Shown: positions 43,501 to 46,500 of the stretch, piece by piece
Layout: every line of letters begins with the position of its first letter
Position numbering within the stretch: the first letter of the stretch is position 1
IMG/VR virus record: IMGVR_UViG_648028025_000010
DNA: 64,000 nt
DNA from: a virus
Taxonomy: Duplodnaviria; Heunggongvirae; Uroviricota; Caudoviricetes
Strand: one strand, 5' to 3'
Position numbers: made by a program

Positions 43501-46500
43501 CCAAAAGAATGAGCAATGAAACAATCACTGGCGAGATGCGTCCCCTTTAAAAAATTATCCAGAATCTCACTATTTGCAGAGCGCTCTCTGTTTTTTTGAA
43601 TACGGAAACACTCTGCGAGATTTCTGCTCATCACTTTCCGGCAATAATCGTAAAACGCCGCGAACTGCTCATCACGGCGTTTTTTTTCACCTTCGGAAGG
43701 GATCTGCACCGACAGTTTTTTATTCAGTTCAACGACGCTGTTCTCCAGTTTTTCAATGCGTGATTCGATATCATCTTTTTCTGACTGTATCGTGTTATAT
43801 GCATTGTTAATTTGTATGGTATACCGCTCTTCTGAACAGAGGCGCTTTTCCGGCAACGGTTCGTTCCCTTCACATAACCCGGCAGCAATATCCATGAAAA
43901 ACTGCTTCGCCTTCTTTTTCGCCTCAGCTTCGTAAAACTCCAGCGGGGCACCTTCAACACGATCAAGATCAATCACCACATTTGGCAACAACAGTGACGT
44001 ATACCCACCAGTTTCCAGCGCCACAGTAACAGTAATCTTATCCGGGTAAATATTTATCCCTTTAACAACCAGTTCGTATTGTTTATTCATCGTCTACTCT
44101 CCCCGCGCCGCCTTACGACGGTCCTCTCTGATTTTGAAATACAGGTTAGTAAGATACGTCAGCAGGCCAAACAGCAGACTCCCCAGCACACCTATCGCCA
44201 CCCACTGGGACGGAGAGACTTTGTCCAGCAGCTGCAGTAACCAGTATCCCGTCCCCACCGCTGACGTGGTGTATGACACACCTGTTGTGATTTTTTCCAT
44301 CTGATGTATGTCTCCGTCACCGCCGACAGAAAATGAAAGTAAAGAAAAACAAAAAAACCGCCAGTGTCACCCACTGACGGCCAACTCCGGGAGCCGTGAT
44401 TATGGCATTCAGGCTCTGCTAAAAATGCCAGATAACATTCCGGCCTCCCCTGATTCAGGTTATAAATGACACAATATCTTGACAACACCCGTCACTGTCT
44501 GTCAGAAAATATACCGCTAGGCATAAGTATCATGTGAAATCCAACTATCCTTCTGAGCCAGCACCTCTCCACCGAAAGTCAGTGCTGGCTGTTTTTTTCC
44601 TTAATAAAGCATCTGTAACTGAAACAATCCGCATATTGATAATATATTGACAGGCATCATTGCTGTCTGTGAAAAATAAGTCTCTACAAACATATAAGGC
44701 CTTTTAGCCAGCGTCTTCTTTCAGGTCAGTCGCTGGCTCTTTTTTTATTATGCTGCCGGTGCATTTATCTCCAGCACCAGACTTTCTATCTCAACGCCAT
44801 ACGCTGCATTTTTTGTAACATCCGTCAGCGTCAGCGCATTCAGTCCCAGTGTCAGACTGTCTTTTATAACCTGGAATGCCGGGCCAGCCACTCCATTCAG
44901 TTTCGGAGTAACCGTGGCACTGCCGGCGGTGAACACCAGCTCCAGCGTCTGCCAGTCGTTACCGTAATCGCCGAACTCCCCCAGCTTCGTGTTTCCGGCT
45001 TTCCTGTGATGCATCAGATTCACTCTGCCGTCAGTGGTCTGAGTGAAGTACGACATCAGGAACGGATTACCGGTACCCGTCATCGCCACACCATCAGGAA
45101 CGGGAGCATCCGTATACAGATAAATCCCCAGCCCGAACTGATTGTTGGTCAGTGCGCCTGACAGGCGGAACTTACAGGTCAGTCTGCCGCCCTGTGTCAG
45201 CAGGGTAATTGCGTCATCCACCGGATGCGTCAGGGACCAGGTTTTATTGCTCTGCTTGGTGATCTTAAATACACCATCTGACAACTGAATTCCGCCATCC
45301 TTAATGCTCCAGCCCTGCGCAGCAGCCTCTCCGGCTGCCGGCAGCAGGGAGATTGTGCGAACGGACGTATCTGCAGACGGACCCGATGGCGTGTTGCCGC
45401 CGGGCGAGGGTTTGATTTCCGGTGCCTTACCACTGATGAAGGCGGAGGTGCGCCCGGCTGCGTTCAGAATAGCGGTTGCCAGACGATCCGGAATAATGCT
45501 CCTGCGCGCCCATGAACTGAAATGTGTCGGGCGGTTTGATGATACCTGGTTTCCATTCGTTCTCGATGCCGCACCGTAATATCCTGATGCCGGAATATCC
45601 GGATCTTCTGCCGGCGCGTTAGTGGCGGTATTGACACCGTTACCGTCTGTCATGAAGGGCACAAAATAAACGCCCTCACTCTCCCTGTTTTTATACCCGC
45701 CGTACACGGTGTCGTACTGGGTAGCGTATGTATTTTTCCAGTAATACGTCGTGTCACCACAAATCCACGGCACATCTGCAGCACTGCCACCATGGCACTG
45801 CGCGTTAAACACGGAGAGGTCAGCACGAAACTGTGTCAGCATGGCTGTAAACAGCGCAGGTTGCTGTGCGTGGGTGGCGGCGCTCATGTCAAACTCTCCC
45901 TGCATCCAGCACACCGCCAGCAACACATTTTTCGGGTTCTTCTGTAATGCAGCTTTAGTGCGCGCAATCAGGTCCTGATATAACGGTTTACCCACACCCC
46001 AGCGTGCCGAATCCTGGCTGGCCCCCGTGTCCGCACTGAATGTCCCCTCCGCGCCCTGGGTGAATGCCGAACCACCACGACAGCATGGTACCAGCAGGAT
46101 CCCCGCGTTATTCGGGATATACGGGAGCAGTTTTTTGGCAATATGTAAGCCCTGGCCGACACAGCCGTACTGCCCTTTGCTCAGGTCTGCCTTCGGATGA
46201 TTCAGCGTACTCATATCCTGCACATCATGCAGGCAGTGGTCGGCCGGAATAATATCGTTATATCTGCATGCAGCCCCACCCGGCGTAACTGTACTGCGGC
46301 GCGCCAGCTGTTTAATGCGCGGATCCGGAGCATCGTATGAATCCGGCAGCGGAAGCCCTTCACCGTAAGCCATGGCATTGGACTGCCCGGCCAGTACGAT
46401 GACGTAGTACCAATCCGGCTCAGTTGCACCACTGACCACCACATCACCTTCTGCTGTAATCGCCTGCATCAGGGTATAAGGGGTTATGGCCACCGGACTA

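What the first reader, a model, noticed from the sequence alone, without database searches (positions are those of the whole stretch)
44479..44746. Two tandem stem-loop plus U-tract units on the antisense strand between nanS-p and holin
On the plus strand, opposite to late transcription, two units have the same architecture: an 8-9 bp GC stem (AGCCAGC..GCTGGCT), a 17-nt loop and a T7 tract, at 44556-44598 and 44706-44746. Each is preceded ~60 nt upstream by a conserved ~35-bp motif (TTGACA-N10-CTGTCTG-T-N-A-N-AAAAT). This could be a pair of small antisense RNA genes with their own terminators, or protein-binding/attenuator elements. The 17-nt loops are unusually large for simple intrinsic terminators. 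No ORF explains them.
Basis: seen in the sequence. Interest (0 to 1): 0.5.

Follow-up and report, generated by a model that had tools for sequence, protein, structure and literature searches.

The report
Tandem PasA-family prophage small RNA genes

Summary
Two hairpins on the + strand (9 bp and 8 bp stems, 17-nt loops, T7 tails) lie at 44556-44598 and 44706-44746. Each follows a TTGACA-N10-CTGTCTGT motif. They sit between the P21-type holin gene and the sialate esterase gene nanS-p, both on the - strand.

Unit 1 is an orthologue of PasA, an 85-nt Hfq-dependent sRNA validated by northern blot and RIL-seq in EPEC E2348/69. The published ends map to window 44514 and 44598, and the published probe matches 44566-44590 exactly. 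The window allele is probably the O157-type variant PasA-2.

Unit 2 is a diverged tandem paralogue. Its terminator is the 3' end of the published 236-nt 'minor' PasA form. It is also a separate sRNA-like RIL-seq entry and matches the Hfq-bound cluster EcOnc52 of O157 Sakai. Phage 434's GenBank record annotates both hairpins as terminators.

Compensatory changes support the stems. The two-unit layout dominates related prophages, and PasC is a single-unit allele of the same locus. Unit 2 also survives alone behind IS insertions and on 61 plasmids.

The only partly new point is this tandem paralogy, which the 2026 Pas survey did not note. Whether unit 2 has its own promoter, and what either RNA does, remain untested. 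Interest is low.

The parts
44479..44510 (+). Promoter-like motif of unit 1: TTGACA (44479-44484), N10, CTGTCTGT (44495-44502), GAAAAT (44505-44510).
   Evidence: Read directly from the sequence. The motif occurs only twice in the window. The TTGACA lies at -35 to -30 relative to the published PasA 5' end, which maps to 44514. It is conserved in PasA, PasC and unit-2 copies. The sigma-70 scan tool does not call it.
44514..44598 (+). PasA-family sRNA, 85 nt, probably the PasA-2 allele.
   Evidence: E2348/69 PasA coordinates 743499 to 743415 were transferred through an alignment with no gaps before the hairpin loop of unit 2. Identity to E2348/69 PasA is 73/85, and the last 43 nt match 43/43. 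The published northern probe is the exact complement of 44566-44590.
44557..44566 (+). Published PasA seed GCCAGCACCU, covering the 5' arm of the terminator stem and the first two loop bases.
   Evidence: Pearl Mizrahi 2021 fig. S5. The sequence is identical in the window.
44556..44598 (+). Intrinsic terminator 1: 9-bp stem, 17-nt loop, T7.
   Evidence: Compensatory changes in homologues support the stem. Annotated as a terminator in the phage 434 record OL657226.1. The published major PasA 3' end maps to 44598.
44647..44677 (+). Promoter-like motif of unit 2: TTGACA (44647-44652), N10, CTGTCTGT (44663-44670), AAAAAT (44672-44677).
   Evidence: The motif is kept intact in alleles truncated by IS elements or other insertions and in the plasmid copies.
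44682..44746 (+). Inferred unit-2 sRNA of about 65 nt, a diverged paralogue of PasA/PasC. The 5' end is inferred.
   Evidence: Whole-length alignment to unit 1. The Sakai EcOnc52 Hfq-CRAC cluster corresponds to about 44681 through the terminator. RIL-seq RNA2 reads at 743267-743294 correspond to about 44719-44746.
44706..44746 (+). Intrinsic terminator 2: 8-bp stem, 17-nt loop, T7. It ends one base before the nanS-p stop codon.
   Evidence: Annotated as a terminator in phage 434. The published minor PasA 3' end, 743264, maps to about 44749.
44514..44749 (+). Read-through isoform, the published 236-nt 'minor' PasA.
   Evidence: mapped through.
44770..44780 (-). Site CUGGUGCUGGA in the 3' end of the nanS-p mRNA, with 8 nt complementary to the PasA seed.
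   Evidence: Identical to the site reported for the PasA partner E2348C_1246, a nanS-p mRNA, in RIL-seq motif table S7. Repeat D5 and inverted repeat I20.
44356..44382 (-). Terminator-like hairpin plus T-run on the late strand, upstream of the holin ribosome-binding site. It converges with the PasA units.
   Evidence: Annotated as a terminator in phage 434.
44748..46598 (-). nanS-p, the SASA-family sialate O-acetylesterase. Flanking gene.
   Evidence: Pfam SASA, DUF1737 and DUF6645.
44094..44300 (-). Class II (P21-type) holin. Flanking gene.
   Evidence: Pfam Phage_holin_2_1, E = 9e-33.

Best explanation
The region holds two tandem, paralogous small-RNA genes of the PasA/PasC family. They lie in the nanS-p to holin spacer of a lambdoid prophage and are transcribed convergently with the late operon.

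Unit 1 is the pasA orthologue. Transcription starts about 30 nt downstream of a perfect TTGACA. It mostly stops at hairpin 1 plus U7, giving an 85-nt Hfq-bound sRNA. Some polymerases read through to hairpin 2 plus U7, giving the 236-nt form.

Unit 2 repeats the same plan: motif, short 5' region, hairpin, U7. It most likely also makes its own RNA of about 65 nt.

The RNAs act in trans by base pairing with Hfq. The proposed PasA seed, GCCAGCACCU, sits in the 5' arm of the terminator. Reported partners include the 3' end of nanS-p mRNAs.

Shown by others on a near-identical locus: the transcripts, their ends, their Hfq dependence and their RIL-seq partners. Shown here: orthology, the coordinate mapping, the tandem paralogy, stem covariation and the distribution of locus architectures. 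Inferred: both promoters, independent transcription of unit 2, and any regulatory outcome.
For: The published PasA coordinates, strand, probe and two 3' ends map onto 44514, 44598 and about 44749. The mapping uses a 95.5% identical alignment with no gaps before the hairpin loop of unit 2.

The last 43 nt of the window RNA, including the seed, are identical to PasA.

Northern blots show that PasA is Hfq-dependent. DESeq2 gives log2 fold change -2.8 for pasA in the hfq comparison.

Unit 2's hairpin is recovered only as RNA2, the sRNA-like position, in RIL-seq chimeras. One partner is escD.

In Sakai, EcOnc51 lies over unit 1 in prophage Sp12. EcOnc52 lies over a unit-2-only allele in Sp4.

The two units align end to end with z = 8.9.

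Stem pairs covary: C-G to U-A in one sequence, and A-U against G-C between the unit families. No shuffle out of 500 reached the observed covariation score.

Of 80 related IMG/VR loci, 48 have both units.

Unit 2 with its motif persists after at least three different upstream insertions and on 61 plasmids.

The phage 434 record annotates both hairpins as + strand terminators.
Against: The sigma-70 scan does not call a promoter at either motif. The best -10-like hexamers, GAAAAT and AAAAAT, sit 20 and 19 bp from the -35.

Zhu et al. state that the mature PasA 5' end may arise by cleavage of a longer transcript.

No experiment separates a unit-2 transcript from PasA read-through. The published northern probe lies in unit 1.

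EcOnc52 reads could be multi-mapped from identical unit-2 copies elsewhere in the Sakai genome.

The Sakai coordinates come from an older record version, so those cluster positions are approximate.

No target regulation by PasA has been demonstrated.
Confidence: 0.85

Rival explanations
1. There is only one gene. Unit 2 is just a back-up terminator for PasA read-through, and its upstream motif is a dead remnant of an old duplication. It makes no RNA of its own.
For: The authors of the EPEC study list the second 3' end as a 'minor' 236-nt PasA form. No canonical promoter is called at unit 2. The RIL-seq signal covers only the 3' hairpin.
Against: The unit 2 motif is identical (31/31) in a plasmid copy that is otherwise about 92% identical. 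Unit-2-only alleles keep about 25 nt upstream of the TTGACA after independent insertions. The EcOnc52 cluster starts about where a start site 30 nt after the TTGACA would fall. PasC shows that a single unit abutting nanS-p is an expressed sRNA.
Confidence: 0.35
2. The main role is in cis. The RNAs are fully complementary to the late-transcript spacer between nanS-p and holin. By pairing with it, or by convergent transcription, they would lower leaky expression of the lysis genes in lysogens or set lysis timing, as lambda OOP does for cII. This could operate alongside the trans activity.
For: Both RNAs are antisense to the late operon spacer. The locus always sits directly next to the holin-lysozyme cassette. 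A late-strand RNA from the same spacer appears in RIL-seq, as pasA.E2348C_0689.IGR. A convergent late-strand terminator lies 130 nt away.
Against: No experiment addresses this. The spacer is non-coding and about 210 nt from the holin start. Many related phages lack the units altogether: 14 of 80 loci have a short spacer without them. RIL-seq partners are mostly trans-encoded.
Confidence: 0.2
3. The units are plain transcriptional insulators. Two + strand terminators stop stray antisense transcription from entering nanS-p, and the short RNAs are by-products without function.
For: Both are textbook hairpin plus U7 terminators, and they are annotated only as terminators in phage 434.
Against: PasA ranks 12th of all RNAs by number of RIL-seq interactions and needs Hfq for stability. 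The seed and hairpin are invariant while the 5' region varies. There is no + strand gene upstream whose transcription would need stopping.
Confidence: 0.1
4. The hairpins function on the late (-) strand RNA, as attenuators or protein-binding sites.
For: Because the arms are palindromic, equivalent hairpins form on the - strand RNA (z about -2 to -3).
Against: On the - strand each hairpin is preceded by an A-run and followed by no U-tract, so neither is a terminator there. The orientation of motif, hairpin and T7 is the same in every allele. The detected RNAs are on the + strand.
Confidence: 0.03

Closest known systems
PasA (E2348CN_0003) of EPEC E2348/69, with its variant PasA-2 and the EHEC cluster EcOnc51
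   Same: Same locus (nanS-p to holin spacer), same strand relative to the late genes, and the same promoter motif. The 3' 43 nt, including seed, hairpin and U7, are identical. The ends map to the same bases.
   Different: 12 of the first 42 nt differ from the E2348/69 allele. The window allele matches the Sakai Sp12 type apart from one SNP. It is therefore probably PasA-2, whose interactome is unknown.
PasC (E2348CN_0005) of EPEC E2348/69 and phage 2B8
   Same: Same spacer and same orientation. The promoter and 5' region are nearly identical to unit 1 (64/69). The stem arms and the junction with the nanS-p stop codon resemble unit 2 (30/36 against 26/36 for unit 1).
   Different: PasC loci carry a single unit with an 11-bp stem and an 8-nt loop. 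The window has two units. PasC looks like a one-unit allele of the same locus, either ancestral or produced by recombination. The direction of change is not resolved.
EcOnc52 (O157 Sakai prophage Sp4) and the RIL-seq entry pasA.E2348C_0688.IGR
   Same: Both correspond to unit 2: the same sequence, abutting the nanS-p stop codon on the opposite strand, and Hfq-associated.
   Different: The literature treats them as PasA homologues or as the PasA long form, not as a separate paralogue. In Sp4, unit 1 has been removed by an IS629 insertion.
AgvB and AsxR anti-sRNAs (Rfam RF02702, RF02703)
   Same: They are short Hfq-binding sRNAs in the late region of lambdoid prophages of pathogenic E. coli. They have conserved 3' terminators and variable 5' regions.
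   Different: They occupy a different position, 3' of PR' or stx, upstream of nanS-p. They share no sequence or structure match: nothing from Rfam reaches threshold on 44440-44770.
Lambda OOP RNA (cis-antisense, own promoter and intrinsic terminator). This comparison rests on my own knowledge.
   Same: A short phage RNA transcribed against a phage operon and ended by an intrinsic terminator.
   Different: OOP overlaps the cII coding end and acts through RNase III. Here the overlap is with a non-coding spacer, and the documented behaviour is Hfq-dependent pairing in trans.

Membership tests
PasA/PasC prophage sRNA family (Pearl Mizrahi 2021; Zhu 2026) | Sequence homology to E2348/69 PasA over most of its length | tested here: met
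   Unit 1 matches 73/85 overall and 43/43 in the 3' half. The whole spacer is 95.5% identical. Unit 2 meets this only as a diverged paralogue: 79/100 aligned positions to unit 1.
PasA/PasC prophage sRNA family (Pearl Mizrahi 2021; Zhu 2026) | Location between the sialate esterase and the holin-lysozyme genes of a lambdoid prophage, on the opposite strand | tested here: met
   for the window. for the reference loci.
PasA/PasC prophage sRNA family (Pearl Mizrahi 2021; Zhu 2026) | [quoted passage not shown] | tested here: met
   Both units have one. Compensatory stem changes are seen.
PasA/PasC prophage sRNA family (Pearl Mizrahi 2021; Zhu 2026) | Conserved PasA seed GCCAGCACCU | tested here: met
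   Identical at 44557-44566 in unit 1. Unit 2 has GCCAGCGUCU, so it is not met for unit 2.
PasA/PasC prophage sRNA family (Pearl Mizrahi 2021; Zhu 2026) | Expressed, Hfq-dependent transcript of about 80-85 nt | not testable with these tools
   Shown only for the E2348/69 allele. Hfq CRAC clusters exist for the Sakai alleles.
AgvB/AsxR anti-sRNAs (Rfam RF02702/RF02703) | Match to the Rfam covariance model | tested here: not met
   No hit at E up to 10 on 44440-44770 or at E up to 1 on 40000-50000.
Rho-independent (intrinsic) terminator | G+C-rich hairpin immediately followed by a U-tract on the transcribed strand | tested here: met
   Met on the + strand for both units. Published RNA 3' ends fall at the T-runs. 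Not met on the - strand.
Sigma-70 promoter | -35 and -10 hexamers 16-18 bp apart | tested here: inconclusive
   Both units have a perfect TTGACA, and in unit 1 it sits at -35 to -30 of the published 5' end. The tool calls no promoter. The -10-like GAAAAT and AAAAAT lie at spacings of 20 and 19 bp.
HnrS (EcOnc10-12) multicopy prophage sRNA | Same locus or sequence | tested here: not met
   HnrS lies about 3 kb away in Sakai Sp12, beyond the lysis genes. Its sequence is not found in the window.

The most novel reading that the evidence does not exclude
Unit 2 is an independently transcribed, so far unnamed third member of the PasA/PasC family, with its own seed (GCCAGCGUCU). On this reading the common pasA locus is really a tandem sRNA pair. 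Unequal recombination or insertions then generate the PasC-type, unit-1-only and unit-2-only alleles, including the copy on EHEC virulence plasmids. The pair might additionally act in cis on the late transcript just upstream of the holin gene.
Probability: 0.5. Interest if true: 0.35.

Novelty: already known. Interest (0 to 1): 0.2.

Why it matters
PasA is among the most connected accessory-genome sRNAs in EPEC, and it is multicopy in EHEC and EPEC. Recognising it matters for annotating this window correctly.

The added value here is modest. The pasA locus is a diverged tandem pair, and PasC is a one-unit allele of the same locus. The recent survey that concluded pasA copies do not arise by tandem duplication did not note this.

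If unit 2 is a separate sRNA, the Pas repertoire and its copy-number statistics would need revising. A short RNA carried on EHEC plasmids would also gain a name. None of this changes the general picture of prophage-encoded Hfq sRNAs.

Tried and rejected
- **Rfam:** cmscan on 10 kb and then on the 331-nt core found nothing relevant. AgvB and AsxR are therefore excluded, and no Pas family exists in Rfam 15.
- **HnrS (EcOnc10-12):** this 66-nt multicopy prophage sRNA looked like a candidate for unit 2 because of its size and copy number. It maps about 3 kb away in Sakai Sp12, and its sequence is absent from the window.
- **RNAduplex:** I tested PasA and unit 2 against the nanS-p 3' end. The result was uninformative: long interrupted duplexes no better than shuffles. 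I rely instead on the published 11-nt site, which is identical in the window.
- **Start-site data:** the supplement of Sy et al. 2020 (dRNA-seq and Term-seq of Sakai) is not held, so I could not look up start sites.
- **Small + strand ORF 44308-44469:** it is low-complexity and overlaps the late-strand terminator, so I judged it not to be a gene.
- **Distribution beyond Escherichia:** a degenerate pattern scan of 185,579 species representatives found the tandem only in E. albertii. The other 13 hits lack the hairpin and are chance matches.
- **Canonical sigma-70 promoter call:** negative at both motifs.
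Full report
**The observation**

The 447-nt spacer 44301-44747 lies between two - strand genes. One is a P21-type holin (44094-44300). The other is a 616-aa SASA/DUF1737/DUF6645 esterase, nanS-p (44748-46598).

On the + strand there are two units of the same design:
- **Unit 1:** AGCCAGCAC, a 17-nt loop, GTGCTGGCT, G, T7, at 44556-44598.
- **Unit 2:** AGCCAGCG, a 17-nt loop, CGCTGGCT, C, T7, at 44706-44746. It ends one base before the nanS-p stop codon.

A strict scan (perfect stem of at least 8 bp, loop up to 20 nt, T6 within 2 nt) finds only three such sites in the 64-kb window. 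Thirty Markov-random sequences gave none. TTGACA-N10-CTGTCTGT occurs exactly twice, at 44479 and 44647, each upstream of a hairpin.

The units align over their whole length: 79 of 100 positions, z = 8.9 against dinucleotide shuffles. They are diverged tandem paralogues, not merely similar hairpins. The motif-to-hairpin distances are 77 and 59 nt rather than about 60 for both.

**Identity of unit 1**

Rfam has no match in the region. The literature does.

Pearl Mizrahi et al. 2021 (PMC8550237, table S6) list PasA of EPEC E2348/69 on the minus strand of NC_011601.1. Its 5' end is 743499, its major 3' end is 743415 (85 nt) and its minor 3' end is 743264 (236 nt). It lies between E2348C_0688 (the esterase) and E2348C_0689 (the holin), in opposite orientation to both. 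The northern probe is GCCAGCACTGACTTTCGGTGGAGAG.

That locus is 95.5% identical to window 44300-44760 and aligns without gaps until the unit 2 loop. The mapping gives:
- the 5' end at window 44514;
- the major 3' end at 44598, the last T of unit 1's T7;
- the minor 3' end at about 44749, just past unit 2's T7;
- the probe as the exact complement of 44566-44590.

The window RNA matches PasA at 73/85 positions. All 12 differences fall in the first 42 nt, and the last 43 nt are identical. Those 43 nt include the proposed seed GCCAGCACCU, the hairpin and U7.

Zhu, Shabalina and Storz (bioRxiv 10.64898/2026.05.13.724894) describe this pattern for PasA-2: a conserved 3' end, a divergent first 40 nt or so, and prevalence in ST11. 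The window allele differs by one SNP from the Sakai Sp12 allele. It is therefore probably PasA-2.

**What is known about PasA**

PasA was validated by northern blot and is Hfq-dependent. It ranks 12th by number of RIL-seq interactions and is expressed under virulence-activating conditions. Its function has not been elucidated.

Among its top motif-bearing partners are nanS-p mRNAs. The site CUGGUGCUGGA is present unchanged at window 44770-44780 on the - strand.

**Identity of unit 2**

Several published observations concern unit 2, though none names it as a separate gene.
- Its terminator is the end of the 236-nt 'minor' PasA form.
- In RIL-seq it has its own entry, pasA.E2348C_0688.IGR. It has five interactions and is always RNA2, the sRNA-like position. 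One chimera, with escD, maps to 743267-743294, which is the 3' half of the unit 2 hairpin.
- In O157 Sakai, Tree et al. 2014 list two Hfq-CRAC clusters named as PasA homologues.
  - EcOnc51 (Sp12, 2237479-2237555, +) lies over unit 1 of a two-unit locus.
  - EcOnc52 (Sp4, 1181998-1182075, -) lies over a locus where IS629 has removed unit 1 and only unit 2 remains.
- The 5' edge of EcOnc52 corresponds to about window 44681, roughly 30 nt after unit 2's TTGACA.
- The phage 434 GenBank record (OL657226.1) annotates both hairpins as terminators on this strand. It also annotates a third, convergent terminator on the late strand, equivalent to window 44356-44382.

**Comparative anatomy**

I fetched 80 IMG/VR loci through the nanS-p C-terminus and classified the spacer.

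| Spacer architecture | Loci |
|---|---|
| Two units, as in the window | 48 |
| Single unit of PasC type | 11 |
| Single unit-1-type whose terminator abuts nanS-p | 2 (L032, L051) |
| Unit 2 only, after different upstream insertions | 3 (L048, L080, L083) |
| Short spacer without units | 14 |
| Contigs too short to classify | 2 |

The upstream junctions of the three unit-2-only loci lie within about 6 nt of each other.

PasC (E2348/69 prophage PP5; phage 2B8) has the promoter and 5' region of unit 1 (64/69). Its stem arms and its junction with nanS-p are closer to unit 2 (30/36 against 26/36). PasC is thus a one-unit allele of the same locus. I cannot tell whether it is ancestral or recombinant.

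Across the unit types the hairpin is supported by compensatory changes. One position shows C-G, U-A and U-G. Another shows A-U in unit 1 types and G-C in unit 2 and PasC types. No shuffle out of 500 reached the observed covariation score, and slid controls collapse.

Unit 2 with its motif also sits alone on 61 plasmids of E. coli and E. albertii. Most of these copies are about 92% identical overall, yet the 31-nt motif is unchanged.

Among 185,579 species-representative genomes, a degenerate pattern finds the tandem only in E. albertii. The other 13 hits lack the hairpin. This agrees with the reported restriction to Escherichia and Shigella.

**Mechanism**

The best-supported account is two convergent-to-late sRNA genes.

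Unit 1 is transcribed from a promoter whose perfect -35 hexamer lies at -35 to -30 of the published 5' end. Transcription terminates mostly at hairpin 1. Read-through ends at hairpin 2.

The product binds Hfq and pairs in trans through a seed that unusually overlaps the 5' arm of its own terminator.

Unit 2 probably makes its own RNA of about 65 nt, with a different seed-equivalent, GCCAGCGUCU.

Three weak points remain:
- The promoter scan calls nothing. The -10-like hexamers are at spacings of 19-20 bp.
- Zhu et al. mention possible 5' processing of PasA.
- No experiment separates unit 2 transcripts from read-through.

A cis-antisense effect on the late-transcript spacer upstream of holin is possible but untested.

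On the late strand the hairpins have no U-tract. This argues against an attenuator or terminator role on that strand.

**Novelty and verdict**

The element is known under several names: PasA (2021), EcOnc51/52 (2014), the Pas distribution survey (2026), and the terminator annotations in phage 434.

The only point I could not find in those papers is that the pasA locus is itself a diverged tandem pair, and that PasC is its one-unit allele. Zhu et al. state that pasA copies are not products of tandem duplication, because the closest recognised copies are 22 kb apart.

This is a small refinement, and interest is low.

Noticed in passing
window 24600-24681 (+): A likely PasB homologue, with hairpin TCCCGCAG/CTGCGGGA plus T6. 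It aligns with the E2348/69 PasB region between the tail assembly gene and gpJ at 82% column identity; the 3' arm and T-run are identical. It was the only other site that passed the strict terminator scan of the window.
   Followed up: partly
window 46736-46905 (-): A strong Rfam STnc100 hit (102 bits) just upstream of nanS-p on the late strand. This is the position where PasD2 lies in E2348/69, and Zhu et al. relate PasD to STnc100. Three tRNA genes follow at 48278-48524 (-).
   Followed up: no
window 44356-44382 and 44427-44444 (-): Two terminator-like hairpins on the late strand between the PasA promoter and the holin ribosome-binding site. The stronger one has an 11-bp stem plus a T-run and is annotated as a terminator in phage 434. 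It converges with the PasA units. Late transcription must read through it to reach the lysis genes.
   Followed up: partly
L048, L080, L083 and Sakai Sp4 (L004 about 2600-2640); equivalent to window about 44625-44632: Different IS elements or insertions join the spacer within about 6 nt of one another (AATCCGCATATTG). This point lies just upstream of the unit 2 promoter motif. It suggests an insertion or recombination hot spot at the boundary between the two units.
   Followed up: partly
L005 (plasmid pRM8385-1, NZ_CP028113.1 about 68049-68205) and 60 other plasmids: A fragment of about 160 bp sits on EHEC and E. albertii plasmids of about 80-170 kb, next to uilS and vapBC in pRM8385-1. It holds unit 2 (motif, hairpin, T-run) and the last few codons of nanS-p.
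   Followed up: partly
window 44770-44780 (-): The 3' end of nanS-p carries CUGGUGCUGGA. This is the site reported for PasA chimeras with nanS-p mRNAs in EPEC. The sRNA may therefore pair in trans with the mRNA of its convergent neighbour, about 20 nt upstream of that mRNA's stop codon.
   Followed up: partly
window 47077-47580 (-): A TerB-domain protein lies upstream of the late promoter region. TerB is one of the 'PasA/PasC conserved genes' listed by Zhu et al.
   Followed up: no
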